The notes under the pieces were generated by a model, which did not search any database, was not told where the DNA came from, and saw only the letters and a list, made by a program, of their open reading frames with translations. DNA of 39,123 bases, taken from the IMG/VR virus record IMGVR_UViG_3300045988_068423, positions 1 to 39,123 of that record; one strand, given 5' to 3'. Shown here in pieces: positions 4,644-32,800 of the stretch; position 1 is the stretch's first letter; every line of letters starts with the position of its first letter. The position numbers were made by a program, and so were the translations under genes. The DNA is from a virus.

Positions 4644-4859
4644 ATGAAAATCCCCAACAAGCTGTACGACATTCTCAAGTGGGTGGTCATTATCGTGCTG
4701 CCCGCCGTGGCGACCCTGTATGCAGCCCTGTCCGCTGTCTGGGCGTGGCCGTACTCGGAGGAGGTCGTCACCACCATCACCGCCGTGGATACCTTCCTCG
4801 GCGCCGTGCTGTGCATCTCTGCGGCCACCTACAACAAGGGAGGCAAAGACAATGCCTAA
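4644..4859 (+). CDS. Holin (Dp-1/LL-H-like)
   Basis: AAAGGAG RBS, then ATG at 4644. MKIPNKLYDILKWVVIIVLPAVATLYAALSAVW...TAVDTFLGAVLCIS gives two TM segments in the Dp-1 holin pattern. Its stop overlaps the endolysin start. Confidence 0.75.
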   Translation: MKIPNKLYDILKWVVIIVLPAVATLYAALSAVWAWPYSEEVVTTITAVDTFLGAVLCISAATYNKGGKDNA

Positions 4860-8336: not shown

Positions 8337-9431
8337 TTATTTTTTATTTGTTAGTAACGTGTTAGTAACAGCATCCACAAGTGTCTGCGCGTCGATGTGC
8401 GTATATATGTTTGCGGTGGTGGAATAATCTGCGTGTCCGAGTATTTTTTGCAGCATTTCCGGTGGCAATCTCTCTTTTACCGCCCGGGACGCGTATGTGT
8501 GGCGTGTTGCGTGCGGGGTCTTGCGCTCTATGCCCAGCCGGTCAAGAAGTGGGTAAAAATCACGCCTGCGGAAGTTCGCCGGTACTTTTTGCCCATCGTA
8601 GCCGGATAACAGCAGCTCCCCCGTTGCTCGCTTCGCAAAGTAGGCAAAGTATTGTTTCCCCTCCGGGCGAATGGGGATAATTCGGTTTCGCCCGGCTTCT
8701 GTTTTTTCGCCGCCGATCACATAATCGCCGTGATAGTCTGCCAGCGGCAAAGAAAACAATTCCCCGATACGCATGCCCGTTGCCAGCAGCATCAAGACAA
8801 TTTTCGCCGCATCGCTGTTGTCGAATTTCAATTTACGGATATCTTCCTCCGTGAAGATGTCCTTTTCTTTTTTTATATTTTCTGGCAGCCGGACAAATTT
8901 TGCAAAATTTGTTGTGCAGATTTCCTCTCGGATTGCCCAGTTCGACATCTGCGTTATCAGCTGCTTGTACTTGTTCACGGTGGAATGGCTCTTGGCCATG
9001 TGTGGGTCAAGTACGGCCTGAAAGTCTGCGGTGCGGAGATCGCGAAACTTTTTCCCGTGCAACGGCGTAAATATGCGGTAGGCGTTGTTATATGATTCTA
9101 TCCCCTGCTTGCCGATTTCCTTGTAATGCTCCTCTTTCCACGCATCAAAGACTTCCGCAAAGGTCATATTATACCGCTCCGTTAAGCTCTTGCCGTTCAA
9201 CCGCTCCAAAGCGTCCAAAGCGTCCGTTTTGCGCTCATAGTGCCCGATAATCACTTTGTTTTTCGCGGCCACCCAAGGCGATTTTCTACGCCCCGCCAGT
9301 TTGTATACAGTTCCGGTGCCGTTTGCCCTCTTCGAAGCCTTGCGCCGCTCTGTTACCTGTTTTTTGCCACAGATATGGCAATATACAGCACCCGGGACAA
9401 GAGTTGTTCCGCATTTAATGCAGTTGCTCAT
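8337..9431 (-). CDS. int: Tyrosine integrase with N-terminal zinc-ribbon
   Basis: MSNCIKCGTTLVPGAVYCHICG zinc ribbon. C-terminal HATRHTYAS...LGHADYSTTANIYTH matches the R-H-R-Y catalytic signature. ATGA overlap with the upstream gene. Confidence 0.9.
   Translation of the reverse strand: MSNCIKCGTTLVPGAVYCHICGKKQVTERRKASKRANGTGTVYKLAGRRKSPWVAAKNKVIIGHYERKTDALDALERLNGKSLTERYNMTFAEVFDAWKEEHYKEIGKQGIESYNNAYRIFTPLHGKKFRDLRTADFQAVLDPHMAKSHSTVNKYKQLITQMSNWAIREEICTTNFAKFVRLPENIKKEKDIFTEEDIRKLKFDNSDAAKIVLMLLATGMRIGELFSLPLADYHGDYVIGGEKTEAGRNRIIPIRPEGKQYFAYFAKRATGELLLSGYDGQKVPANFRRRDFYPLLDRLGIERKTPHATRHTYASRAVKERLPPEMLQKILGHADYSTTANIYTHIDAQTLVDAVTNTLLTNKK
8350..8369 (+). repeat. attP arm-type repeats (GTTAGTAAC x2, 11-nt register), inside the int 3' end
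   Basis: GTTAGTAAC at 8350-8358 and 8361-8369, in the same orientation as 8113-8131. Confidence 0.55.
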
Positions 9432-10009
9432 TTTTCTGCTTCCTCGCCTTGTTTGGTTTTTTTGTCCGCCGCAAGAGTGGACAATAGCACGGATGTAAGT
9501 ACGCCGATACCCACCGCCAAAAGCGCAATGAAAATCCATGCAATCGTTCCGGCTGTCTTGGATCGGATCAGGCCTTCGTCCTGCACACGGTAATCAAGCG
9601 CCACATACCATGTAACTATACCCAGCAGGATAGCGGACAGCAGCGATGTGATATACAGCATCGTGCGCTGCCGCCTTGCTTTTTTCTTCTGCTCCTCTGC
9701 TGATTTAGACAGCTCATCGTATGCGCCCTCTATCCGTGCAATGCGCACATCCTCGTCATGGACTTGCTGAAGCTGCTTGATTTGGTCTTGCGCCAAAACA
9801 ACCTCTACAATGCCAAAGTAACGGTCCATAGACACCCCCAGCACCTTGCAGATGGGGCCAGCCGCATACACGCCTGGTGCTTTCGATGTGGATGCAAAAA
9901 AGTTGTTAACGCTGGACAAAGGCACACCGGATTGGTCTGCTATCTCCTGCGCCGTGATGTGCTGTTCCAGTTTTGCGTCCCGGCAAGTGTCCTGCAACGA
10001 TTTCTCCAT
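9428..10009 (-). CDS. XRE-type HTH protein with C-terminal transmembrane segments
   Basis: ITAQEIADQSGVPLSSVNNF is an HTH. Two C-terminal TM helices follow (LYITSLLSAILLGIVTWYV; IAWIFIALLAVGIGVLTSVLL). Start chosen at the RBS-preceded ATG. Confidence 0.65.
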   Translation of the reverse strand: MEKSLQDTCRDAKLEQHITAQEIADQSGVPLSSVNNFFASTSKAPGVYAAGPICKVLGVSMDRYFGIVEVVLAQDQIKQLQQVHDEDVRIARIEGAYDELSKSAEEQKKKARRQRTMLYITSLLSAILLGIVTWYVALDYRVQDEGLIRSKTAGTIAWIFIALLAVGIGVLTSVLLSTLAADKKTKQGEEAEK

Positions 10010-11602: not shown

Positions 11603-11631
11603 ATTGTAGCATATGCCCCCGCCGCAGTCAA
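11603..11631 (-). promoter_or_regulatory. Sigma-70/A-type promoter (leftward, lysogeny side)
   Basis: Minus strand reads TTGACT, a 17-nt spacer, then TACAAT. Confidence 0.65.
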
Positions 11632-16479: not shown

Positions 16480-17165
16480 AGCACTTAGGCGATATTTGCA
16501 AGATAAACGGCGCTGAGATTGAGCCTGTGTGGTGCATCACAGGCGGCAGCCCGTGTCAGGACTTGAGCATTGCCGGAAAGAGAGCGGGGCTGGCAGGCGC
16601 CCGAAGCGGCCTGTTTATGGAGCAGGTGCGCATTGCAAAAGAAATGCGGGAGGAGGACAAGAGAAATGGACGGACAGGTGAGTTTATTCGCCCTCGATAC
16701 CTCGTATGGGAGAACGTGCCAGGCGCGTTCAGCAGCAACAAAGGGCGGGACTTCGCGGCAGTCCTCGAAGAGATCATCCGCATCGTCGAACCGGAAGCCG
16801 CCGGTATTGATGTGCCTGCAAAGGGTTGGCCGACTTGGGGAGGATACCACGACTGCATGGGTGGACGATGGAGCGTGGCTTGGAGAGTGCATGACGCGCA
16901 ATACTGGGGAGTGCCCCAACGTCGCCGTAGAATCTCGCTTGTCGCAGATTTTGGAGGCGACACCGCCGGCGAAATACTCTTTGACCGCAAAAGCGTGCCT
17001 GGGGATCTTGCGGAGAGCGGAGCGGCGGGGGAAAGACTTGCCGAAGCTGCTGAAAGCGGTTTTAATCCGGCAGTCGCAAGGAGCCTCACCGCAAGAGCAG
17101 ACGGAAGCCCCTGCGCCGACAGAGGCCCCAACATCGTATGCAGTCCGCATCAGGGGGGGGTGTGA
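16476..17165 (+). CDS. C5-cytosine DNA methyltransferase, catalytic-core polypeptide (motifs IV-VIII, no motif I)
   Basis: GGSPCQDLS (IV), VWENVPG (VI), QRRRRISLVADF (VIII). ATGA-coupled start. The frame ends right after a G8 run (17153-17160). Confidence 0.8.
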   Translation: MKHLGDICKINGAEIEPVWCITGGSPCQDLSIAGKRAGLAGARSGLFMEQVRIAKEMREEDKRNGRTGEFIRPRYLVWENVPGAFSSNKGRDFAAVLEEIIRIVEPEAAGIDVPAKGWPTWGGYHDCMGGRWSVAWRVHDAQYWGVPQRRRRISLVADFGGDTAGEILFDRKSVPGDLAESGAAGERLAEAAESGFNPAVARSLTARADGSPCADRGPNIVCSPHQGGV

Positions 17166-18141
17166 CGGCGGAGGAAAAGGCGCGTTAGTGCAGACGGAGA
17201 AAAGCGGGACGCTTGGCACCGGCAACGACCAGACGATATTTGCGGCAATCCCTATCAACGACAAAGCCACCAGATGGCAGGGCGGCGGTGAAAGCCGCAA
17301 CCACGATGGAAGCGGGAACGGGCTGGGAATAGGCAGGGACGGAGACCCGTCACCGACGCTTACCGCAGGAGACCGGCACGGAGTGATGGCGGTGGCGCTG
17401 GATATGACACACGCCTGCGACGTTATCCGCGAGTGCGGGGAGCAAGTATCGGCATTACAGGCGCGAATGGGGACAGGCGGCAACCAAGTGCCGCTTACAT
17501 ACGGTATCGGCAACGGACAAGCCCATGAAGCCAGCATTATGACTGAGGAAGTCAGCCAGACACTGAACACCATGCACGATGCCCAGGCGATTTTATCCCA
17601 GCCCAAAAGCGCGATGGAAGAAAACTGGGCGGAAAGCGAAACGAAGAACGCATTACGCGCCGGAGAAAGCAAAGTGAGCCACGCGGTGATGTGTGAGGAC
17701 GTGAGCCACGCGCTGCGTGCAAAGGCTGCCTGCGCGTACCGGGAGGATGCGGAGACATACCCGGTACAGAACATGGTCGTGCGCCGCCTGACGCCGATGG
17801 AGTGCGAACGGCTGCAAGGTTTCCCGAACCACTGGACTGACATCGGCGAGTGGACGGACGAAAAGGGCAAGGAGCACAAGGACGCGGACAGCCCCCGGTA
17901 CAAAGCACTGGGTAACTCCATCGCCCTGCCCTTCTGGGAGTGGATGCTGCGGCGCATGGCGCGGTATCTGCCGGAGCGGGCAACGCTGGGGAGCCTGTTT
18001 GACGGCATAGGCGGATTCCCGCTTTGCTGGGAGCGCATTCACGGCCAAAGAACGGCCAGATGGGCGAGCGAGATCGAGCAGTTTCCCGTTGCTGTGACAA
18101 AAATACGATTTCCGGAGGAAGGAGAAGAAGATGGCATTTGA
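16666..18141 (+). CDS. C5-methyltransferase target-recognition/C-terminal polypeptide, with motif I appended at its C-terminus (frame +1, overlaps 16476-17165 by 500 nt)
   Basis: AGGAGG sits 9 nt before ATG 16666. LSQILE..KYSLTAKAC, RRLTPMECERLQGFP (IX), GNSIALP (X), then LFDGIGGF (I) and ASEIE at the extreme C-terminus. Confidence 0.65.
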   Translation: MDGQVSLFALDTSYGRTCQARSAATKGGTSRQSSKRSSASSNRKPPVLMCLQRVGRLGEDTTTAWVDDGAWLGECMTRNTGECPNVAVESRLSQILEATPPAKYSLTAKACLGILRRAERRGKDLPKLLKAVLIRQSQGASPQEQTEAPAPTEAPTSYAVRIRGGCDGGGKGALVQTEKSGTLGTGNDQTIFAAIPINDKATRWQGGGESRNHDGSGNGLGIGRDGDPSPTLTAGDRHGVMAVALDMTHACDVIRECGEQVSALQARMGTGGNQVPLTYGIGNGQAHEASIMTEEVSQTLNTMHDAQAILSQPKSAMEENWAESETKNALRAGESKVSHAVMCEDVSHALRAKAACAYREDAETYPVQNMVVRRLTPMECERLQGFPNHWTDIGEWTDEKGKEHKDADSPRYKALGNSIALPFWEWMLRRMARYLPERATLGSLFDGIGGFPLCWERIHGQRTARWASEIEQFPVAVTKIRFPEEGEEDGI

Positions 18142-24816: not shown

Positions 24817-25072
24817 TCCGGCTAAGGCATACGAGCTGGGCCGCCTGGATGGCACCAAACAATGCATGGACAATGTTTCCTGCGTACTGCTGGACAAGTG
24901 CGGATTCCATGTGCGGGAGGAAACGGCGGACGAGCACGACACCCGTAGCCTGGAATACTTACAGCAGTGCCTTGTGGAGCTGGTGGAGGCCAAAAACAAC
25001 GGCTATGTAAAGATGGCGGACATAGAAAAGGCCCTGCGTGGCGAATATAAGATGGTGAACAGTGCGGAGTAA
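24779..25072 (+). CDS. Hypothetical protein
   Basis: 97 aa. Start taken at the RBS-preceded ATG 24779. Confidence 0.55.
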   Translation: MLKRANGRPVPNNPAKAYELGRLDGTKQCMDNVSCVLLDKCGFHVREETADEHDTRSLEYLQQCLVELVEAKNNGYVKMADIEKALRGEYKMVNSAE

Positions 25073-25082
25073 AGGAGGGAAA

Positions 25083-25547
25083 ATGAGCAAAAAGGCGACG
25101 CTGCCTTATGATGTGCGGTTGGAGTGCATTGCTTATGTGCGCGGATATCCGCGCCGAGTGCGGGCGTATCGCGAGGCCCGGGCGGAGATCCTGGGAGGGA
25201 CGCATAGCGCTACGGAGGGAATGCCAAGAGGACAAGGCGCCGGCAGACCCGCCGAGAGCAAGGCGGAGCAGCTTGCAGCCATAGAGAACTGGCCGGAAAC
25301 CAAGAAAATGCGGGCTGTGGAATATGCCATAGACCGCTGCGGGCTGGATTTGGAGAGCGAGAGCGTCCGCAAGCAGCTTACACAGGGGATCATGCGCAAC
25401 TGTCAGGGCAAGCACAAGTATTCCCGAAGCAGGATTATCGTGCCGGGGATCAGCGAAGCGACATTCCGACGGAGGAAAGAGATATTCCTGTTCGATATCG
25501 CTACATATTGTGGTTTCGATAGGAAAGATGAGCCAAATTCCACTTAA
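25083..25547 (+). CDS. Putative late-gene transcriptional regulator (RinA/ArpU-like by position)
   Basis: AAAGGAGGG RBS. It is the last protein gene before the packaging module. The assignment is by position only. Confidence 0.4.
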   Translation: MSKKATLPYDVRLECIAYVRGYPRRVRAYREARAEILGGTHSATEGMPRGQGAGRPAESKAEQLAAIENWPETKKMRAVEYAIDRCGLDLESESVRKQLTQGIMRNCQGKHKYSRSRIIVPGISEATFRRRKEIFLFDIATYCGFDRKDEPNST

Positions 25548-25559
25548 TGATGTGCTACA

Positions 25560-26270
25560 ATAGGTACAGTGGATGATAGGACATGGTCATTCACGCGATT
25601 TCCCAATCATCACTTTTCCTCCCTTCTATGCGCCGCCGGTATTGGGCGCACCGCGCAAGCGGACTCGGAAACGGGCGTACCGGCACAAACAGCCTGTAGG
25701 GAAACCTATGGGCTGTTGTTATATGCAGGCGTAGCTCAGTCGGTAGAGCATTTGGTCGCTGGTTCGAGTCCAGCCGCTTGCACAAGAGGCCGGGTAGCGC
25801 CCGGACACTGTGAGACCGTTCGTCGTGGCTCACATGGAAATGACAATGGTCGCTGAAAACTGCACGGTGGGCGCTTGGAAGTCTCTTTTGGAGAGAATGG
25901 GGCGCAGCGTAATGGTGGCGATGGAGCCAACCCGTTGTGTGACAATCTAAGCGGCAAGACGGCCAATATGCGGCATAGGTGCCCCGTAAGGGGAGACCAC
26001 AGCGAGTGACGGGGACTTTCCTCGAAGCGCTAAAGCAGGGCAGGACTGCAATGCCGCACCAAAAGCGGAGAGCCGCTGCCGTGGGCAAATGGCATAGCGC
26101 CTGCCCGGAAGTGCGGCTATACCGCTCAGAAGTGAGCTGTGGAAAAGACATTGCCACCTGCTGGCAAACTGTGTAACCCATGTTTGAGAGCTTCCAGAAG
26201 GCCGCATGGGAGGGGAAAGACTGTTACTGTAGCCAAGGGGTGGGGGCTGGTGACAAACAAGGGAGGAAAA
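25560..26270 (+). ncRNA. Candidate large structured ncRNA (ROOL/GOLLD-like class suspected, unverified)
   Basis: About 720 nt with no RBS-preceded ORF. Dense nested helices with GNRA loops on the plus strand, plus long-range pairings. Helix coordinates are listed in the findings. Confidence 0.55.
25725..25782 (+). ncRNA. tRNA-like element lacking the anticodon arm
   Basis: GCAGGCG-TA-GCTCAGTCGGTAGAGC-A-TT-TGGTC-GCTGGTTCGAGTCCAGC-CGCTTGC-A. Acceptor stem, D arm and T arm are intact, but 2 nt replace the 17-nt anticodon arm. No encoded CCA. Confidence 0.7.
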
Positions 26271-26275
26271 CGGCT

Positions 26276-26776
26276 ATGGAAATCATAAAACCCGGCAAAG
26301 TCAGGAGAGTAAAGCTGGAATGCCCGGAATGCGGGTGTGAATTCGCCTGTTCTCCGGTAGAAATGGTACGCAGATACGGAACTGTGTTTGCTAAGTGTCC
26401 ACAGGAGGGATGTGGCAGAAGCGTGGAAGTGCCAAACGGAATCCCCGAGTACATCGAGCCTGCAAACCATACTGCCATTGGAACGATCACTGTGGTGCTG
26501 TCAGGGGCAACCGTTACAGAAGATCCTGTAGGCGATGAGCGGTATATCACAAGGGTGACGAATGTATCGAAGGGAGTTGCAGAGCATATCATAGCACTGG
26601 GCGCAGATACCAGCATCTCCCTGATGATTGATGGCAAATACCCGGAGCGATTCTACATGGCAAATACCGGGATGCTTATCGCCTACAAGGCCCACGATGG
26701 GAAACTCTACACGAATAGGAGTGACACATGTAATGGCTACAAAGAAACCTACCGCCATCGCAAAAGCAAAGGATAA
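26276..26776 (+). CDS. Hypothetical protein with N-terminal zinc ribbon
   Basis: GGGAGG RBS. Contains CPECGC...CPQEGCG. Confidence 0.6.
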   Translation: MEIIKPGKVRRVKLECPECGCEFACSPVEMVRRYGTVFAKCPQEGCGRSVEVPNGIPEYIEPANHTAIGTITVVLSGATVTEDPVGDERYITRVTNVSKGVAEHIIALGADTSISLMIDGKYPERFYMANTGMLIAYKAHDGKLYTNRSDTCNGYKETYRHRKSKG

Positions 26777-27302
26777 CCGACCGGCGACTGGCAGAGGCGG
26801 CAAAGGAAACTTCCCTTCCTGTCTTCCTGACCTTAGCAGCGATAAAGATAGAGCCCTTGTATCTCGCCTCCTTACAGAAGCCCTTGTAGAATACAGACAG
26901 CCAAAGGTAAAGAGTGACGAAGAACTGACGGAGAGAATAAACGACTATTTTGCCCGGTGCGCTGAGACAGGACAGACCCCAACAGTAGAGGAACTATACA
27001 TGTCAACAGGCTACGCAATTAGCACGGTTAAGGACTGGCTATCCGGAAGACGCAAGGGATTTAGCCCCGAAACAGCGTCCATTATAAAAAAAGCCAAGGG
27101 GTTTATGCAGACTTTTGACGCAAAACTTGTGGTTTCTGGGAAGCTGGAATTCCTTGCCTATTGCTTCCGTGCCAAGAACTATTACGGCATGGTGGACAAG
27201 CAGGAGATGGTTTTGACGCCGAACCAGCCGCAGATTGAGGGCTTGACTCCCGAACAGCTCCAGCAGAAGTACATAGAAGCCAGCGACTTTGATGCAAAAT
27301 GA
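26733..27302 (+). CDS. terS: Terminase small subunit
   Basis: ERINDYFARCAETGQTPTVEELYMSTGY...FRAKNYYGMVDKQE fits the gp3-type small terminase pattern. AGGAGTGA RBS. Confidence 0.7.
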   Translation: MATKKPTAIAKAKDNRPATGRGGKGNFPSCLPDLSSDKDRALVSRLLTEALVEYRQPKVKSDEELTERINDYFARCAETGQTPTVEELYMSTGYAISTVKDWLSGRRKGFSPETASIIKKAKGFMQTFDAKLVVSGKLEFLAYCFRAKNYYGMVDKQEMVLTPNQPQIEGLTPEQLQQKYIEASDFDAK

Positions 27303-27314
27303 GCCGAAAGCGAG

Positions 27315-27523
27315 CGACTTTTGCACGACTTTCCGTTAATTCCGGGAAAGTAGGCAAGAAAAATCCCGCCTTTATACACGGAATTTTGTAAACGACTATG
27401 ATTTTGGGGTAAATGAGCGATTTTGGCGCAGGCACTTGCGACTTTCACAGCGACTTTGCCAGCGACTTTCGCACGGAGGGGAACGACTTTGCCAGCGACT
27501 TTCGCGACTTTCCCGGAGACTTT
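27315..27523 (+). repeat. Iteron array: at least 9 direct copies of CGACTTT (AGCGACTTTSSC), mostly in 12-nt register
   Basis: Exact copies start at 27315, 27326, 27439, 27451, 27463, 27484, 27496 and 27505. Variants start at 27393, 27418 and 27517. Confidence 0.85.
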
Positions 27524-27820
27524 GGCGGAGCGCCACGCGCGGCGAAGCAGCCACCGGAGACCCCCGAGACTGCACCGCCGGAGCAGGGGGCAGCCGCCGA
27601 CAAAGCCACAGGTGAACGAGAACGGCGGCAAGCTGGCAGCGCAAGCGGCGAGCCACGGAGCAGGGGACAACGACACGCCACAAGGCCATAAACAACGGCC
27701 ACAGGGCAAGCAGGGCGGCGGAGGTATAGGGATAGCCCCAAACATTAAAACGCCTCACATATGCATTAAAATGGCAAATAGGGCATACAGCAGAAAAGCC
27801 CCCGGAATACACCAGGAGCA

Positions 27821-27854
27821 AAGGAAAACCCCGCACAGCGTGAGCCATGCGGGG
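27821..27854 (-). terminator. Rho-independent terminator of the leftward island operon
   Basis: CCCCGCA / TGCGGGG stem. On the minus strand it is followed by TTTTCCTTT. Confidence 0.7.
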
Positions 27855-27888
27855 CGGTGTCAATATTCAATGCACTTAAAACCAGTTA

Positions 27889-28101
27889 TCACAATAAGTA
27901 CGGGATCCCGTTGATGATACGGGCGTATTCGTACCCGTTGATACATCCCGATATTTTCCGGTCTTTGGAGATCCACAAGATCAAATCAGGGTCATGGACG
28001 GCATTTATCCAGTATTCCGCGCCACGGTGCATGATGTGTGTTCCGCTGTATCTCATGGGATCGATGTTATCAACAATATACTTGGCTGTAATGCGCTTCA
28101 T
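27889..28101 (-). CDS. Hypothetical protein (island operon)
   Basis: AAGGAGGAAAACGAT RBS. 70 aa. Confidence 0.6.
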   Translation of the reverse strand: MKRITAKYIVDNIDPMRYSGTHIMHRGAEYWINAVHDPDLILWISKDRKISGCINGYEYARIINGIPYLL

Positions 28102-28250
28102 ATCGTTTTCCTCCTTATGCGCTAATATTAAGGTTATTTTTGGAGCTTTGCAAGGTCAAGCAGCAGTAGAATGGGCTGCAGCAGGATATACAGCAAGATC
28201 AAGGGCGGCACCTCCTTACATGGCAATTGTAGCACATACGCCGGAGCAGG

Positions 28251-28517
28251 TCAAGCGAAAGTAAACCGCCGGGCGGTTGTCGTCTTGGTGTAGCGGGCTG
28301 CAATCTCCGGGAGATCCTTTTTTAGTCTGGTTGTGTCTACCCTGGAGGATGTAACCGCCTTATATGTGGCCTTGTGTTCTGACCCCGCCAGGGATTCCAC
28401 CCCGGCGGCGGTCATGCGCTCTTTTAGCTGGTCCTTGAGGCTTTCCACCATTGCGGAGGCTTCCTCCTGCATCCGGATATACTCCGCAAGCTCTTTCATA
28501 ATGCTGTCAATGTTCAT
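28251..28517 (-). CDS. Hypothetical protein (island operon)
   Basis: 88 aa, helical N-terminus. The start lies 5 nt after the upstream stop. Confidence 0.6.
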   Translation of the reverse strand: MNIDSIMKELAEYIRMQEEASAMVESLKDQLKERMTAAGVESLAGSEHKATYKAVTSSRVDTTRLKKDLPEIAARYTKTTTARRFTFA

Positions 28518-28522
28518 TGTGT

Positions 28523-28765
28523 TTACACCCCCATTTCAAAACGGGCACCGAAAAACCAATAGGTTTTATTTTTCGATACTTCCACGGCGTCCACGCAATC
28601 CGCCGGGCTGCACCCGAAAACATGACTCTTTACAACCTTTTCCCATTCCTTGACGGTATATAATTCTCTTGCTATGAGAATATCCCCACAATTAACATAT
28701 TTCCCCCGCTTGATAACGCATAACCGCTTATTATCATATTGCGGTTTTACCCGGTAATATTTCAT
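28523..28765 (-). CDS. Hypothetical protein (island operon)
   Basis: 80 aa, MKYYRVKPQYDN...TYWFFGARF. The pattern recalls widespread phage/ICE small proteins; this was not verified. Confidence 0.6.
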   Translation of the reverse strand: MKYYRVKPQYDNKRLCVIKRGKYVNCGDILIARELYTVKEWEKVVKSHVFGCSPADCVDAVEVSKNKTYWFFGARFEMGV

Positions 28766-28777
28766 AATTAAACCCCC

Positions 28778-29002
28778 TTAAAACAAGATAAACAGATTTG
28801 AACAACGCCCGATAATGGCATATAATGCGCCGGTTTCCGTGTCCTGCACAAGTCCGCCGTTAATACCATAAACCCCGGAAGAATAGCCCACCTTTTCAAG
28901 CCTGCGCAGCGTGTAAATATATTCGCTCGGCTTATTGGTATAATCCTCAGCCACCCCGAGCCGCACAAGCTCCCGCAGCTCTTTCAATTTATACTTCCTC
29001 AT
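28778..29002 (-). CDS. Hypothetical protein (island operon)
   Basis: ATGA overlap with the upstream gene. 74 aa, MRKYKLKELRELV...GVYGINGGL. Confidence 0.6.
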   Translation of the reverse strand: MRKYKLKELRELVRLGVAEDYTNKPSEYIYTLRRLEKVGYSSGVYGINGGLVQDTETGALYAIIGRCSNLFILF

Positions 29003-29418
29003 TGCTGCACCTCCTGCCGGGCGGCCCGGATAGCTCCATACATCCGGCGGAAAGCCTGATGCAGTGCCCTGGCTTGCACGTCGAGCCATTCTTCCCGGCT
29101 GTTCGGCCTGCGGTCGCCGTTGCGGGTCTTTTTGAGCTCGGACGGGGTGCAGAGCGCGGCGGCTATGTCTCCATCATACACAAGGGCCGAGCCGCCCCAG
29201 CTGTATTTACTCCAGTCCCGTGCGCCGTTCAGCGCTGCGGCCTCGGCGGTAGTCCATGTTGCGAGATCGTCGGCGGAGATATAACCGTCTTTGTAGTAGT
29301 CCGCGATCTGCTGCAGCATATCCACGGCATAGGCTGTAACGCCACGGCTCCACGCGCTGCGGTCATTGCGCTGCTCCAGTGTCTTCTTTACCTCTGCAAG
29401 TACTGTTGTATAATCCAT
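28999..29418 (-). CDS. Hypothetical protein (first gene of the island operon)
   Basis: GGGAGG RBS. 139 aa. ...NGARDWSKYSWGGSALVYDGDIAAALCTPSE...WLDVQARAL recalls proteins from the leading regions of Firmicutes conjugative elements; this was not verified. Confidence 0.65.
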   Translation of the reverse strand: MDYTTVLAEVKKTLEQRNDRSAWSRGVTAYAVDMLQQIADYYKDGYISADDLATWTTAEAAALNGARDWSKYSWGGSALVYDGDIAAALCTPSELKKTRNGDRRPNSREEWLDVQARALHQAFRRMYGAIRAARQEVQQ

Positions 29419-29449
29419 TGTATTACCTCCCGGCCTGTGGCCTAATCTC

Positions 29450-29478
29450 TTGCCAACGGCTGCCGGATGTGGTATACT
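29450..29478 (+). promoter_or_regulatory. Sigma-70/A-type promoter (rightward) with extended -10
   Basis: TTGCCA, a 17-nt spacer, then TGG-TATACT. Confidence 0.55.
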
Positions 29479-29564
29479 CTCCGTGCTGGCCTGTTGGCTG
29501 GTGTGGGGGCGTTCCCGGGTTGCTTCGGTAGGCTGCCGGGCGCGCCCTCGTCTTGTATGTGTCT

Positions 29565-29593
29565 ATTGTAATGCCCATTAGGGTATTTGTCAA
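29565..29593 (-). promoter_or_regulatory. Near-consensus promoter of the leftward island operon
   Basis: Minus strand reads TTGACA, a 17-nt spacer, then TACAAT. The spacer contains the ATGCCC-ATTA-GGGTAT dyad. Confidence 0.7.
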
Positions 29594-29676
29594 TAGTTAT
29601 GGGCAATATAATGCCCGTATAATATATGCAATAATTTGTGCGGGTATTTGTATAATATGCCCACTGTGGTATACCC
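29571..29676. promoter_or_regulatory. Cluster of seven GGGYAT/ATRCCC half-sites (operator or res-like site)
   Basis: ATGCCC at 29571, GGGTAT at 29581, GGGCAA at 29601, ATGCCC at 29611, GGGTAT at 29642, ATGCCC at 29657, ATACCC at 29671. They form three dyads plus one lone half-site. Confidence 0.6.
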
Positions 29677-29861
29677 TAACGGCACACACGGCGGGCGGCA
29701 GTCCAGGGCGTTCCCTGGCGGTGCTGGCCGGGGGCGGGGGATATGCGGCGGCAGCCGGGGGCGGGGTAACCCCCAAAAATTCCGCAAAAAATAAAAAGCC
29801 GTTTTACCCCATGTTGTAAAATCCGGCAAAAACAAAAAGGCTATTTTGGGCATAAAACATA

Positions 29862-29890
29862 TTGACACAAATTATGCCGTGTGCTACACT
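29862..29890 (+). promoter_or_regulatory. Promoter of the serine recombinase gene
   Basis: TTGACA, a 17-nt spacer, then TACACT, about 30 nt upstream of the RBS. Confidence 0.7.
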
Positions 29891-29919
29891 ACCCTTACAA
29901 GATGAAGGGAGCAATGCAC

Positions 29920-30507
29920 ATGAAAGTCGGATATATTCGGGTGTCCACAGAGGAGCAGAACACGATCCGCCAAGAGGTACTGATGAAAGACCTTGGTGTG
30001 GAGCGTGTCTACATGGACAAAGCGAGTGGCAAGAGCCGCACAGGCAGGCCGCAGCTGGAAGCGATGATGGATTTCGTCCGAGAGGGCGATGTGGTCATTG
30101 TTGAAAGCATCAGCCGTTTTGCGAGAAGCACAAGGGACTTGTTGACGCTGGTAGAGCAGCTCACAGAAAAAGGTGTGGGCTTTGTATCGCAGAAGGAATC
30201 CATTGACACGAATACGCCGCAGGGCAAGTTCATGCTCACGGTGTTTGGTGCAATGGCAGAGCTGGAACGTGAGCAGACCTTACAGCGGCAGAGAGAGGGC
30301 ATAGCGGCTGCAAAAGCGGCTGGAAAGTACAAGGGTCGGCAACCAATAGCACTTAATGAAGAGCTGGTTAAATCGGTGCATGAGCAATGGTACAAAAACG
30401 AGATAACCACATCATATGCAATTAAGCAGCTTGGAGTGAGCCGCAATACCTTTTACCGCCGGATGTGGGACTACGAGGATTCTGCAGGAATCCCGAGACG
30501 GCGCTGA
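29920..30507 (+). CDS. Small serine recombinase (resolvase/invertase family)
   Basis: MKVGYIRVSTEEQ (catalytic Ser), ...VVIVESISRFARS..., and a C-terminal HTH (YAIKQLGVSRNTFYRR). Confidence 0.9.
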   Translation: MKVGYIRVSTEEQNTIRQEVLMKDLGVERVYMDKASGKSRTGRPQLEAMMDFVREGDVVIVESISRFARSTRDLLTLVEQLTEKGVGFVSQKESIDTNTPQGKFMLTVFGAMAELEREQTLQRQREGIAAAKAAGKYKGRQPIALNEELVKSVHEQWYKNEITTSYAIKQLGVSRNTFYRRMWDYEDSAGIPRRR

Positions 30508-30529
30508 TGAATAGAGGGAGGAAAGAGAA

Positions 30530-30913
30530 ATGAAAAGATTGGCTTGTTTTGTATTGTGCCTTGCGCTGGTTCTTTCTGTGACGGCGTGTGGGAAGCAGTA
30601 TAGTGAGTTTTACCGAAATAGCCCGGATGCCGCCTCTTTGATGGAGGACGCAATCGAACTTTTGGATATGTGCATAAACAAGGAGATAACCGCCGAGGAG
30701 TGTGCAGAGCAGTTGCAAACAATGGGAGAGCTTAACCGAGGCGGAGATGATATAAACATAAGCTCCACGGCACTCAGAATATCTATTGCGGGGCATCAAA
30801 TTGACGGCGTTTTGCTTGGCGTGAGAATTGGGTATAAAACAATGATCGATGTCAAAAACGCCGTGAAGGAGCAGCGAGAATCTTTATACAACAGTCTGCA
30901 TGGGAAAGAATAA
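30530..30913 (+). CDS. Lipoprotein
   Basis: GGAGGAAAGAG RBS. Signal peptide with lipobox LSVTAC. Lower GC than the genome. Confidence 0.75.
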   Translation: MKRLACFVLCLALVLSVTACGKQYSEFYRNSPDAASLMEDAIELLDMCINKEITAEECAEQLQTMGELNRGGDDINISSTALRISIAGHQIDGVLLGVRIGYKTMIDVKNAVKEQRESLYNSLHGKE

Positions 30914-30972
30914 CAAGCCAACAGGGATGTTTGCGAATGTTGGGGCGGAGTGAATAAAAAGGAGGCGCGATT

Positions 30973-31077
30973 ATGGATAAAAAGGTTTTGGCAATTTTAG
31001 TTGGTGCTATTTTGATTATTGTTGGCGTAGTTTTTGCGTTTCAAGGCGGCGGGGCGTTGGGATACTACGCCGGATAA
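30973..31077 (+). CDS. Small membrane peptide (34 aa)
   Basis: AAAGGAGG RBS. MDKKVLAILVGAILIIVGVVFAFQGGGALGYYAG. AT-rich codons. Confidence 0.5.
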   Translation: MDKKVLAILVGAILIIVGVVFAFQGGGALGYYAG

Positions 31078-31147
31078 CAAGGACGGAAAACCAAATAGAA
31101 TGGACTACCGATTTTCCGGCAGTCCATTTTTTATTGCAGGAGGACAA

Positions 31148-32800
31148 ATGGATTATCGGAAGATTGCGGAAAGCATCAAAAACCGCATAAAGAAAACGCA
31201 TGACCGGGAAGCCTACAAGGATTTGCTGGCGTTGTGCATTGGGTACGAAGCGGAAGATTTTGCTGCGGCGCACCAGTTAAATTCCGAAGTCCGAAAGATG
31301 ACCTCCGAGGCACTTCGTAACGGAAACCCAAAAGATGCGGAGTATTTCTACACCCTACATAAGCAGGCCATGCTGTTTGACGCGCCGCATGATTTCGATA
31401 CCTTCCTGCTGTATGTGGAGATGGACAGAAAGCCGGAGAAGCGGTTTTATGCTCCACGCAGGCGGTATCTAAGACCTATTGTGCAGGGGTATCAAGATGT
31501 CCTTGACGGCAAATTGAGGCTGCTGACCATTTCGCTTCCGAAAAGAGCCGGGAAAAGCCAGCTGGGAATCAATTTTATCAACATGGTTTCCGGGAGAAAC
31601 CCGGATAAATCGTCCCTTATGGAAGGCACGGGCGATGATCTTGTGCGAAGCTTCTATAACGGCTGTCTGGAATATCTGCAAACGCCAAACGAGTATTTGT
31701 TCTACGATGTGTTCCCGGATGCTCCATTGGTGCAGACCAACGCAGACACGAAAATTATCAATCTGCGGTCTAAATCCAGATTCCCCACGGTCATGTGCCG
31801 GTCGATTGACGCACGGCAGGTTGGCTTGTCGGAGGCAACCAATGTCCTTTATTTAGATGACTGTGTGGAGGGCAGAGAGGAAGCGAAAAACCGTCAACGG
31901 CTGGATGATAAGTGGGAAGTAATTTCCGGCGATATTTTAGGCCGTGCCATCGAGGGTACGCCTATTGTGGCCACCGGGACGAGATACTCCCTATATGACC
32001 CAATAGGGCATTTACAGGAAGAAGCGCAAAAAGGCGGCTGGACATGGAAAGCCATTGAAATCCCCGCCCTTGACCCAATTACAGACGAAAGCAATTATGA
32101 GTATGAGCGGGAGGGTAAAAAGGTTTTTACCACCGCTTATTTCCGCGAGCAGAGAGAGCTTCTGAGCACGGAACAGTTTGAAAGCGAATTCCAGCAGCAG
32201 CCATTTGAAGCAAAAGGGCTGCTTTTCAATAAGTCGGAGCTGAACTATTTCTTTGAACTGCCGGTAGATCGTGACCCGGATGCAATCATTGCCGTGGCAG
32301 ACACCGCAGAAAGCGGGAAAGACAGCACGGCGATGCCCGTTGCGGCCTTATATGGAGAGGAAGTCTACATCGTGGATGTGGTGTACGATGATTCTCCCGC
32401 AGAGGTCACAAAGCCGGAATGCGCAAAGTGCCTGATTGACAACAAAGTGGGCGATGCACTGTTTGAATCCAACAACGCCGGTATGTATTTTGCGAGAGAT
32501 GTTGCAGAAATCGTCAAAAACGCCGGATTTAACACCAGCATACGGACAAAAAGGACGATTTCCAACAAGCAGACAAGAATTGAGTTTGCATCGGATGGAA
32601 TCAAGAAGAATTTTTACTTCAAGCATCCGTCCACATACAAGAGAGGGTGTCAATACTGGGGATTCATGCAGGAAGTGACCACCTATGTAAGAAGCGGCAA
32701 GGTGGCGCACGATGACGCGCCTGATTCCTTGTCGTTGCTGGAGAACGAAATCCGAAACCGCATCAGCGGCAAGATTGAGATATTCAAAAGACCGTTTTAA
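31148..32800 (+). CDS. terL: Terminase large subunit (headful/pac type likely)
   Basis: GCAGGAGG RBS. Walker A LPKRAGKS, Walker B-like LYLDD, and a C-terminal nuclease region. Confidence 0.9.
   Translation: MDYRKIAESIKNRIKKTHDREAYKDLLALCIGYEAEDFAAAHQLNSEVRKMTSEALRNGNPKDAEYFYTLHKQAMLFDAPHDFDTFLLYVEMDRKPEKRFYAPRRRYLRPIVQGYQDVLDGKLRLLTISLPKRAGKSQLGINFINMVSGRNPDKSSLMEGTGDDLVRSFYNGCLEYLQTPNEYLFYDVFPDAPLVQTNADTKIINLRSKSRFPTVMCRSIDARQVGLSEATNVLYLDDCVEGREEAKNRQRLDDKWEVISGDILGRAIEGTPIVATGTRYSLYDPIGHLQEEAQKGGWTWKAIEIPALDPITDESNYEYEREGKKVFTTAYFREQRELLSTEQFESEFQQQPFEAKGLLFNKSELNYFFELPVDRDPDAIIAVADTAESGKDSTAMPVAALYGEEVYIVDVVYDDSPAEVTKPECAKCLIDNKVGDALFESNNAGMYFARDVAEIVKNAGFNTSIRTKRTISNKQTRIEFASDGIKKNFYFKHPSTYKRGCQYWGFMQEVTTYVRSGKVAHDDAPDSLSLLENEIRNRISGKIEIFKRPF

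What the first reader, a model, noticed from the sequence alone, without database searches (positions are those of the whole stretch)
25548..26275. About 720-nt ORF-free, hairpin-dense block before the packaging genes: candidate large ornate ncRNA
No RBS-preceded ORF exists between the late-regulator stop (25547) and ATG 26276. The plus strand folds by eye into many nested helices capped by GNRA-type loops.
- Stem 25635-25640/25679-25684 encloses two hairpins: CCGC-GCAA-GCGG (25651-25662) and CUCG-GAAA-CGGG (25664-25675).
- A 10-bp GAAA-capped hairpin lies at 25691-25714.
- Further hairpins: CCGGG/CCCGG at 25790-25804, UGUGAG/CUCACA at 25809-25834, and CCCC-GUAA-GGGG at 25982-25993.
- A long-range 7-bp helix pairs GGGCAGG (26038-26044) with CCUGCCC (26100-26106). 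It stacks on AUGCC/GGCAU (26051-26055/26091-26095) and encloses GCGG-AGAG-CCGC (26065-26076).
- Two more hairpins lie at 26113-26125 and 26125-26136.
GOLLD and ROOL are large ncRNAs of unknown function found in Firmicutes prophages, often next to tRNAs. This block has the right size, genomic context and a tRNA-like neighbour, but I cannot match their consensus from memory.
Basis: partly seen in the sequence, partly recalled or inferred. Interest (0 to 1): 0.8.

Follow-up and report, generated by a model that had tools for sequence, protein, structure and literature searches.

The report
Phage array of tRNA-like RNA cassettes
The gene-free stretch before this gut phage's packaging genes is not one giant RNA but a shuffled string of small, separately folded RNA units, some tRNA-like and at least two seemingly undescribed and common in gut phages.

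Summary
The block 25548-26275 is structured RNA on the + strand. It is not a GOLLD/ROOL-type single large RNA. No Rfam family except tRNA matches, even at E<=10.

Across 81 related phage loci the block has 49 different architectures. A constant 5' module (A: promoter-like TGTGCTACAAT plus folded leader) and a constant 3' module (G) frame a variable set and order of self-contained cassettes. In the window these are:
- T, a tRNA-model hit with no anticodon arm (25725-25782).
- CD, a ~185-nt RNA with a covarying long-range helix and a hypervariable core (25785-25965).
- E, a 92-nt cloverleaf ending in ACCA (25970-26061). It has 16-19 of 28 pairs compensated and an invariant GGCAGGA loop, occurs in at least 119 IMG/VR contigs, and also occurs in phages whose flanking genes show no similarity to the window's.
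- F (26062-26166).

It borrows E's invariant loop, and the adjacent helix borrows E's acceptor strand.

Best reading: a co-transcribed, hypervariable array of tRNA-like and novel small RNAs at the regulator/packaging boundary. Function is unknown. Processing by tRNA enzymes and a host-interaction or counter-defence role are inferred, not shown.

The parts
25551..25561 (+). Promoter-like extended -10 (TGTGCTACAAT; -10 hexamer TACAAT 25556-61), directly after the stop of the upstream ORF
   Evidence: Kept in nearly all of the 51 distinct module-A variants seen (one has TGCTAAAAT). The 11-mer occurs 4 times in the window with <=1 mismatch, against 0.71 expected. An unrelated phage array, L082, starts with TGGTACAAT. 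The simple promoter scan did not call it because there is no -35. Function is inferred.
25569..25724 (+). Module A leader. It has hairpin 25569-76/25587-94, a CU-rich UUUCCUCC tract (~25614-25625), helix 25635-42/25677-84 enclosing two GNRA hairpins (25651-62, 25664-75), an alternative or pseudoknot stem 25629-34/25645-50, and a 12-bp GAAA hairpin 25689-25716 followed by UGUUAUAU.
   Evidence: Present at the 5' end of the array in 79 of the 81 family loci scored. The 8-bp helix is 98.8% paired. Stem 25629-34/25645-50 is 93.7% paired with 2 covarying pairs. Slid controls give 33-42%. Covariation depth is limited to two lineages.
25725..25782 (+). Cassette T: 58-nt tRNA-like RNA with acceptor stem, D arm and T arm but no anticodon arm
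   Evidence: Rfam tRNA scores 49.4 bits, with 17 model positions replaced by 2 nt. ARAGORN finds nothing. In 127 copies of this T-arm family, the region at the anticodon position is the part that differs most in length and sequence. The window's form is a singleton that looks like a ~32-nt deletion of the 90-nt form.
25785..25965 (+). Cassette CD: ~185-nt RNA. It has hairpins 25790-94/25800-04 and 25809-14/25829-34, long-range helices 25849-54/25950-55 and 25863-65/25939-41, and a hypervariable core (~25866-25936).
   Evidence: RNAalifold on 32 sequences. The long-range pair 25849/25955 switches G-C to C-G in step (24 CG, 5 GC). The core has at least 4 unrelated types, and the window's type is a singleton. 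CD always follows a tRNA-like 3' end.
25970..26061 (+). Cassette E: 92-nt cloverleaf-shaped RNA.
- Acceptor-like stem 25970-76/26051-57.
- Arm 1: 25978-80/25996-98 plus 25982-85/25990-93.
- Arm 2: 26001-04/26028-31 plus 26010-15/26019-24, with internal loop AGUGA/AAG.
- Arm 3: 26035-38/26046-49 with loop GGCAGGA 26039-45.
- 3' tail A-CCA 26058-61.
   Evidence: A hand-drawn structure and an independent RNAalifold prediction are identical. 98.9% of cells are paired, 16 of 28 pairs are compensated, 0 of 500 shuffles reach the score, and slid controls give 34-47%. On a covariance-model-collected set, 19 of 28 pairs are compensated. Frequent G-U pairs fix the + strand. NCCA follows the stem in 81 of 104 distinct copies. 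The window has one copy, at 131.5 bits.
26062..26166 (+). Cassette F: hairpin-rich spacer (GCGG-AGAG-CCGC 26065-76; 26113-25; 26125-36; overlapping hairpins 26140-43/26155-58 and 26153-56/26162-65)
Evidence: Only 7 distinct variants exist. A few compensatory changes are seen by eye in L077 and L053. F follows either E or a different CCA-ended cassette, 'g'. Weakly supported.
26167..26262 (+). Module G: near-invariant 3' end of the array. It has hairpin 26177-83/26204-10 with inner hairpin 26190-93/26199-02, hairpin 26222-28/26249-55 with 26231-34/26245-48, then the RBS GGGAGG and ATG 26276.
   Evidence: Present at the 3' end of the array in the large majority of the 81 loci. It precedes at least 6 different first genes. 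RNAalifold gives 23 pairs. The inner hairpin switches GCUU/AAGG to GGCC/GGCC in 9 of 29 sequences. An RNA-level role versus a DNA-level role (packaging site) cannot be told apart.

Best explanation
The block is a hypervariable array of small, independently folded RNA cassettes on the + strand, at the boundary between the regulatory genes and the packaging genes of a temperate phage of gut Clostridia (Oscillospiraceae-type hosts).

A constant promoter-plus-leader module (A) and a constant 3' module (G) frame interchangeable cassettes. In relatives these include a tRNA-Trp-like gene, pseudo-tRNAs that keep acceptor, D and T arms but carry arbitrary sequence where the anticodon arm should be, and non-tRNA folds with tRNA-like ends. 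E has a 7-bp terminal stem, is usually preceded by AUAU and is usually followed by N-CCA.

In the window the whole array (A-T-CD-E-F-G) has no + strand terminator. It is therefore most likely transcribed from the TGTGCTACAAT promoter as one precursor that runs into the packaging genes. I infer that the cassettes are cut out by the host tRNA-processing enzymes (RNase P at the 5' side, 3' trimming to CCA). This would leave stable small RNAs and an mRNA that begins near module G.

Shown: folds, strand, modularity, spread. Inferred: promoter use, processing, stability. The cassettes are accessory, since none is universal. Their job is unknown. My best guess is that they act in trans on host factors that recognise tRNA shape.
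For: Structure and strand:
- E covaries strongly, CD has a covarying long-range helix, and modules A and G have weaker support.
- + strand MFE z is -4.2 against -2.0 for the - strand. G-U pairs are abundant.

Not coding: no Pfam match and no codon periodicity.

Modularity:
- 49 architectures in 81 loci, bounded by A and G in nearly all.
- Cassette boundaries coincide with tRNA-like ends.
- Order is permuted in L001 and L082.

Independence of E:
- One copy per locus.
- Present in at least 119 IMG/VR contigs.
- Present in MAG prophages with no detectable similarity to the window's flanking genes, again just upstream of a terminase-small-like gene.

tRNA-likeness: Rfam tRNA 49.4 bits for T. NCCA follows 78% of E copies, against 1.6% by chance.

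Promoter: the motif is conserved and recurs. No + strand terminator is called in 24900-26900.

Known neighbours: in L082 and L086 the same arrays hold a drum RNA (78 bits) and tRNAs. GOLLD and ROOL are likewise reported near tRNAs and in prophages, possibly co-transcribed (PMC5737381).

Hot spot: relatives such as L023 carry a 1.4-kb insert with a reverse-strand HTH gene in the same place.
Against: - There is no transcript evidence of any kind. Promoter, co-transcription and processing are all inferred.
- The simple promoter scan did not call the site.
- In some relatives E is followed by a clear hairpin plus U-run (L059). The array can therefore be its own unit rather than an operon leader.
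- CCA is absent from 22% of E copies.
- The window's T cassette and CD core are singletons, so they may be decaying copies.
- Module G's near invariance fits a DNA site as well as an RNA.
- Most sequences come from one large gut virome data set, so lineages are not independent.
Confidence: 0.6

Rival explanations
1. It is one large multidomain RNA working as a unit, like GOLLD. GOLLD has a variable half that can hold a tRNA. On this reading the cassettes are swappable peripheral domains on a conserved A...G core.
For: All parts lie on the same strand with no terminator between them in the window. The whole block folds better than shuffles. A and G are constant while the middle varies. The MFE fold pairs 25614-25625 with 26255-26266. 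GOLLD and ROOL share the prophage and tRNA context (PMC5737381).
Against: No GOLLD or ROOL match even at E<=10. No covarying helix links different cassettes. The only proposed inter-cassette helix (26038-44/26100-06) is not conserved. The A-to-G pairing is an anti-SD-like tract against a ribosome-binding site, which is expected by composition. Minimal relatives are just A-E-G or A-g-F-G. E and CD occur in phages without A or G.
Confidence: 0.08
2. The constant parts are a cis-acting leader that controls the packaging/late operon. This could work by promoter-proximal RNA structures giving attenuation or processive antitermination, or by a 5' UTR element in G. The cassettes would then be passengers.
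For: A and G are the conserved ends and G abuts the first gene's RBS whatever that gene is. A has two mutually exclusive or knotted stems, both kept, and a long hairpin followed by a U-rich run. In the L001 lineage that run is UUUUUAU. The upstream ORF sits where Firmicute phages keep late activators (own knowledge).
Against: The hairpin/U-run in the window is a poor terminator and was not called. No Rfam leader or antitermination family matches. The upstream protein's role is unverified. This does not explain the conservation of E and CD in other phages. It is compatible with, not exclusive of, the main explanation.
Confidence: 0.15
3. The block is a decaying tRNA gene cluster: pseudogenes and debris with no present function.
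For: The window's only tRNA hit has lost its anticodon arm and is a singleton. The CD core contains a D-arm-like remnant (CAGCGUAAUGGUG), and relatives carry a tRNA-Trp-like gene that the window lacks. Many cassettes are missing in some relatives.
Against: E keeps 28 pairs through compensatory change and has invariant loops across phages that share no detectable flanking-gene similarity. In the pseudo-tRNAs the changes are concentrated in one arm while the other three stay intact. That is not what neutral decay gives.
Confidence: 0.07
4. The conservation reflects DNA-level function: a packaging (pac/cos) site or a recombination hot spot next to the small terminase gene.
For: The block lies directly upstream of the packaging genes. 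Module G is almost invariant at the sequence level. Cassette junctions behave as recombination points.
Against: Compensatory changes that pass through G-U intermediates, and the strand asymmetry of folding, point to selection on a + strand RNA for E, CD and A. This reading cannot be excluded for G.
Confidence: 0.05

Closest known systems
GOLLD (Rfam) and ROOL (Rfam) large ornate RNAs
   Same: They share the prophage setting, proximity to tRNA genes, suggested co-transcription with tRNAs and unknown function (PMC5737381).
   Different: There is no covariance-model match. GOLLD and ROOL are single RNAs with a conserved global fold. This locus is a set of independent cassettes of 58-185 nt that are lost, gained and reordered.
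drum RNA (Rfam RF02958)
   Same: It is a small, highly conserved, unknown-function RNA. It occurs in the same kind of array, immediately 5' of cassette E in L082, and in L086.
   Different: There is no drum match in the window. E, CD and T have different folds.
Phage tRNA gene clusters with embedded stable RNAs of unknown function (T4 RNAC/RNAD, 'species 1 and 2')
   Same: Non-tRNA small RNAs are encoded alongside phage tRNAs. T4's RNAC and RNAD are still of unknown function and classed as late RNAs (PMC9697503). That they lie in the tRNA cluster and are matured with the tRNAs is my own recollection.
   Different: No sequence relation was sought or is expected. This array sits at the regulator/packaging boundary of a temperate Firmicute phage and is hypervariable between close relatives.
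Canonical tRNA (Rfam RF00005)
   Same: T has acceptor, D and T arms that score 49.4 bits. E has a 7-bp terminal stem, four-way junction and N-CCA.
   Different: T has no anticodon arm. E has no T-loop or D-loop consensus and a 3-4-nt loop where the anticodon would be, and neither the tRNA model nor ARAGORN detects it. Neither can decode.
tRNA mimics: YrlA (bacterial Y RNA-like), tmRNA tRNA-like domain, viral TLS
   Same: These RNAs copy part of the tRNA shape to engage tRNA-binding proteins. The tmRNA domain also lacks an anticodon arm (own knowledge).
   Different: The window has no Rfam match to any of them. The only YrlA hit is a weak sub-threshold one over two adjacent tRNAs in L001. In YrlA the RNA ends emerge from the anticodon side, not the acceptor side.

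Membership tests
GOLLD / ROOL (also OLE, HEARO, raiA, group I/II introns) | Match to the family's Rfam covariance model | tested here: not met
   The only match over the window at gathering score is tRNA. None of these families appears at E<=10 on 25400-26400 or at gathering score in 15 relatives.
GOLLD / ROOL | One RNA of ~580-800 nt with a conserved set of multistem junctions and pseudoknots shared by all members | tested here: not met
   There are 49 architectures in 81 loci, no middle cassette is universal, and order is permuted in L001 and L082.
GOLLD / ROOL | Prophage context and tRNA proximity | tested here: met
   Terminase genes, an integrase and tRNA or tRNA-like genes are in or next to the block. 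This context is shared but does not define the families.
tRNA (cassette T, 25725-25782) | Score above the Rfam tRNA gathering threshold (29 bits) | tested here: met
   49.4 bits.
tRNA (cassette T) | Anticodon stem-loop with a 7-nt loop | tested here: not met
   17 model positions are replaced by 2 nt. ARAGORN finds no tRNA in the window.
tRNA (cassette E, 25970-26061) | 7-bp acceptor stem, discriminator and CCA | tested here: met
   All 7 pairs covary. NCCA is present in 81 of 104 distinct copies.
tRNA (cassette E) | D-loop and T-loop consensus, and an anticodon loop | tested here: not met
   There is no tRNA-model or ARAGORN hit. The arm-3 loop is GGCAGGA and the arm-2 loop is 3-4 nt and variable.
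drum RNA (RF02958) | Match to the Rfam model | tested here: not met
   No match in the window. It matches in relatives L082 and L086 next to E.
Substrates of RNase P / tRNA 3' maturation | Cleavage at the 5' end of the acceptor-like stem, with the mature 3' end at CCA | not testable with these tools
   Only the sequence prerequisites are seen: a stacked terminal stem plus arm 3, a usually A/U-rich 5' flank, and encoded CCA.
Processive antitermination or attenuation leaders (e.g. put, EAR) | Match to a known leader family, or promoter-proximal RNA that alters terminator read-through | tested here: inconclusive
   No Rfam match was found. Module A has conserved stems and a hairpin/U-run, but the scan called no terminator. 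Function is untestable here.

The most novel reading that the evidence does not exclude
The locus is an 'RNA accessory island': a recombination hot spot where gut phages collect and exchange tRNA-shaped decoy RNAs. On this reading E (a CCA-ended cloverleaf with an invariant GGCAGGA loop) and the pseudo-tRNAs with scrambled anticodon domains bind, and so blunt or redirect, host factors that recognise tRNA. Examples are anticodon nucleases and other tRNA-targeting defences, in the way real phage tRNAs are known to rescue infection (PMC11555353). The variability of the region at the anticodon position would then be the trace of an arms race.
Probability: 0.15. Interest if true: 0.85.

Novelty: new variant of a known kind. 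Interest (0 to 1): 0.6.

Why it matters
Phage tRNA clusters and tRNA-adjacent mystery RNAs (GOLLD, ROOL, drum, T4 RNAC/RNAD) are known, but what they do is an old open question.

This locus offers a tractable version of that question. It holds short, well-defined folds with strong covariation. At least two have no match in Rfam release 15: E (92 nt) and CD (~185 nt, with a swappable core). Relatives add cassettes H and g. They are common in human-gut Clostridia phages. Natural presence/absence variants already exist, with 49 architectures among close relatives, and these amount to a ready-made deletion series.

The pseudo-tRNAs that keep three arms and vary mainly in the fourth suggest selection on tRNA shape without decoding. 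If so, this is directly relevant to how phages deal with tRNA-targeting immunity.

For annotation, the result warns against calling such blocks either 'tRNA' or 'large ncRNA'.

Tried and rejected
- Rfam at a permissive threshold: only tRNA, plus chance-level hits (HPnc0260, Plastid-ycf2, sn2343, CRISPR-DR36, SMAD5-AS1).
- An RNase P reading of the - strand motif GAGGAAAGUCCCC inside E. Rejected because there is no RNase P model hit on either strand and the covariation and G-U pairs fit the + strand.
- E as a selenocysteine-type or other long tRNA. Rejected because the arm-2 loop is 3-4 nt and variable.
- A kink-turn in E's arm 2. The register needed is contradicted by the compensatory change in L019, so the loop AGUGA/AAG is left undescribed. 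It resembles a sarcin-ricin/loop-E motif only from memory.
- Antisense 196-aa ORF and small + strand ORFs: no Pfam match, no periodicity.
- Upstream ORF as a late regulator or sigma-like factor. Pfam, PHROGs, NCBIfam, PDB sequence search, 171 homologues (none of those listed named) and an AlphaFold model (pLDDT 64) with Foldseek gave nothing significant. Sigma factors top the list at E about 0.6.
- Literature: a catalogue of more than 10,000 candidate phage RNAs mentions tRNA-like candidates, but its supplement is not held, so I could not check whether E or CD are listed there.
- Cultured or annotated phages: only one unannotated faecal scaffold matches.
- The metagenome-wide scan was not used.

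Full report
**Setting.** The window is a temperate tailed phage or prophage. It has a tyrosine integrase (8337-9539, -), a small terminase (26628-27302), a large terminase (31034-32800) and a serine invertase (29881-30507). The finding lies between a 154/161-aa ORF that ends at 25547 and a small zinc-ribbon-type ORF that starts at ATG 26276. Copies of the most conserved cassette occur in Oscillospiraceae, Lachnospiraceae and other Clostridia MAGs, so the hosts are gut Clostridia.

**The observation.**
- The + strand of 25548-26275 folds to -303 kcal/mol, z = -4.2 against dinucleotide shuffles. The - strand gives z = -2.0.
- The block is not literally ORF-free. There is a 196-aa antisense ORF (25591-26181) and short + strand ORFs.
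- None of these ORFs has a Pfam match. Long antisense ORFs occur all over this purine-skewed genome.
- In the best-sampled cassette, substitutions fall equally on the three codon phases (17/17/16 variable columns). A quarter of the variants carry indels.

**Known RNA families.** Rfam 15 gives a single match at gathering score: tRNA at 25725-25782, 49.4 bits. In that match the 17 model positions of the anticodon arm are replaced by 2 nt, and ARAGORN finds no tRNA. At E<=10 on 25400-26400 there is no GOLLD, ROOL, OLE, HEARO, raiA or intron match. None appears in 15 relatives at gathering score either.

**Relatives show a mosaic.**
- A faecal phage scaffold (L001) has the same gene order but a ~1045-nt spacer. 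It holds two real tRNAs, a tRNA-like gene and two blocks 92% identical to the window in swapped order.
- Eighty IMG/VR loci that encode the upstream protein (80-98% identical) share the first ~178 nt and the last ~100 nt of the block. They differ in between by whole segments.
- I scored eleven reference cassettes and found 49 different architectures in 81 loci. Almost all begin with module A and end with module G. The shortest are A-E-G and A-g-F-G.
- Some loci carry a 1.4-kb insert with a reverse-strand HTH gene. The window's A-T-C-D-E-F-G is a singleton.
- Segment boundaries fall at the ends of tRNA-like units.

**Cassette E (25970-26061).**
- I drew a cloverleaf from the variants: a 7-bp terminal stem, three arms, then A-CCA. 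RNAalifold independently predicted the identical 28 pairs.
- On 39 distinct sequences 98.9% of cells pair and 16 pairs show changes on both sides. No shuffle in 500 reaches the score, and sliding the partners drops pairing to 34-47%.
- A covariance model built from this alignment finds exactly one copy in the window (131.5 bits; next best 9 bits). It finds one copy in each of 38 of 42 relatives.
- On that model-aligned set 19 of 28 pairs are compensated, including all seven of the terminal stem. Because the alignment is fitted to the model, this second count leans towards the structure.
- The arm-3 loop GGCAGGA, the junction AAA and the internal loop AGUGA/AAG are nearly invariant. The tip of arm 2 is free to vary.
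- N-CCA follows the stem in 81 of 104 distinct copies.
- It also occurs in prophages with no detectable similarity to the window's neighbouring genes. In L082 it lies a short way upstream of a terminase-small-like gene.

The helix 26038-44/26100-06 uses E's arm-3 loop, and the stacked AUGCC uses E's acceptor strand.
- Of 66 E copies, 36 have no CCTGCC within 700 nt downstream. 21 of the 37 CCTGCC occurrences are in cassette F.
- Cassette F contains a stretch resembling E's 5' end. This explains the apparent complementarity.

**Cassette CD (25785-25965).**
- It also gives two long-range helices, 25849-54/25950-55 and 25863-65/25939-41. The first switches C-G to G-C in step.
- Between these helices lies a core with at least four unrelated sequence types. 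The window's type is unique in the sample.
- CD always follows a tRNA-like 3' end (T, the tRNA-Trp-like gene, or E).
- This ~185-nt unit is the nearest thing in the block to an 'ornate' RNA.

**Cassette T and its family.** In 205 loci I found 127 copies that share T's T arm and acceptor stem. They differ mainly in the region where the anticodon arm should be, which varies widely in length and sequence. One 43-nt insert has its own covarying stem (AAGGG/CCCUU to AAUGG/CCAUU). ARAGORN assigns them inconsistent anticodons. The window's 58-nt form looks like a ~32-nt deletion of the 90-nt form and is a singleton. Change concentrated in one arm, with three arms intact, is not the pattern of neutral decay. 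The window's own copy may nevertheless be a recent casualty.

**Modules A and G.**
- A begins with TGTGCTACAAT (25551-61). This motif is nearly invariant among relatives and recurs four times in the window against 0.71 expected. Two other copies (11603-13 and 29880-90) lie where promoters would be plausible: near a block of leftward ORFs and at the invertase ORF start.
- A's leader has an 8-bp helix (98.8% paired), an alternative or knotted 6-bp stem with two covarying pairs, and a 12-bp hairpin before a U-rich run. Depth is only two lineages.
- G is almost invariant. It folds into two compound hairpins, one with a compensated inner stem, and precedes at least six different first genes.
- No + strand terminator is called between 24900 and 26900. 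In some relatives E is followed by an obvious hairpin plus U-run.

**Interpretation.** The data fit a co-transcribed array of independent small RNAs better than a single large RNA.
- Every well-supported helix closes within a cassette.
- Cassettes are gained, lost and reordered.
- E and CD travel to other phages without A or G.
- In L082 and L086 the same kind of array carries a drum RNA, a known family of unknown function.
- The tRNA-like ends of T and E make processing by RNase P and the tRNA 3' pathway the natural inference. This is not shown.
- The known parallels are T4's RNAC/RNAD (PMC9697503) and the tRNA-adjacent GOLLD/ROOL RNAs (PMC5737381).
- A role against tRNA-targeting host defences is attractive, given that real phage tRNAs do this (PMC11555353). 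It is speculation here.

**The upstream ORF.** I could not confirm that it is a late regulator. There is no family, PDB or annotation match. A mediocre model has sigma factors as its best but insignificant fold matches.

**Verdict.** The GOLLD/ROOL-type interpretation is not supported. What is there is a hypervariable array of tRNA-like and apparently undescribed small structured RNAs. This is a new variant of a known kind of phage locus, of moderate to good interest.

Noticed in passing
window 11603-11613 (-), 28226-28236 (-), 29880-29890 (+): Further copies of the promoter-like 11-mer TGTGCTACAAT (<=1 mismatch). With 25551-61 that makes 4 in the window, against 0.71 expected. 11603-13 lies near a block of leftward ORFs and 29880-90 sits at the start of the invertase ORF.
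   Followed up: partly
window 27303-31033: About 3.7 kb separates the small and large terminase genes. It holds a serine recombinase/DNA invertase (29881-30507) and several unannotatable ORFs on both strands. Only weak inverted repeats were found. It could be an inserted or invertible element.
   Followed up: partly
L082 1775-1880 (-) and L086 4110-4215 (-), 3942-4016 (-): Oscillospiraceae MAG prophages carry a drum RNA (77-78 bits). In L082 it is immediately 5' of the E cassette. L086 also has an int-alpA RNA and a tRNA in the same array.
   Followed up: partly
L023 4831-6156 (and L026-L032, L069, L080): A ~1.4-kb insert sits inside the RNA array, between the CD hairpin and E. It carries reverse-strand ORFs, one with an HTH_3 domain. 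The spot therefore also accepts protein-coding accessory genes.
   Followed up: partly
window 25614-25625 and 26255-26266: Module A holds a conserved anti-Shine-Dalgarno-like tract (UUUCCUCC). The MFE fold pairs it with the ribosome-binding site of the first downstream gene, 640 nt away. This could be composition only. No covariation was seen.
   Followed up: no
window 26140-26165: Two overlapping hairpins (26140-43/26155-58 and 26153-56/26162-65) are both kept by linked changes in L077 and L053, which hints at alternative structures. The same sequence read on the - strand is called terminator-like.
   Followed up: no
L049 4766-4842, L017 4913-4989 and many relatives: A 77-nt tRNA-Trp(CCA)-like gene has an odd D arm and a 6-bp anticodon stem. 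ARAGORN calls it, but it does not reach the Rfam tRNA gathering score. The window has no copy of it.
   Followed up: partly
relatives, e.g. L010 4661-4720, L077 4655-4740, L082 ~2075-2015 (-): There are further self-contained cassettes with terminal stems and ACCA/UCCA tails. H is GCCGUG...CACGGC (~59 nt) and becomes GCCGGA...UCCGGC in L082. Cassette g is GCGGCG...CGCCGC-UCCA. Neither matches Rfam.
   Followed up: no
L059 ~4790-4830 (and other loci with E tail ACAAUAAA): In these relatives E is followed directly by a strong hairpin plus U-run (GAGCGGAAGCUCCGCUC-UUUUUCU). There the array probably ends as its own transcription unit.
   Followed up: no
window, whole length (e.g. 16485-18038 -, 25591-26181 -): Very long ORFs lie antisense to the + strand genes throughout the window. 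This goes with strong G>C and A>T skew on the coding strand. It is a trap for gene callers.
   Followed up: yes
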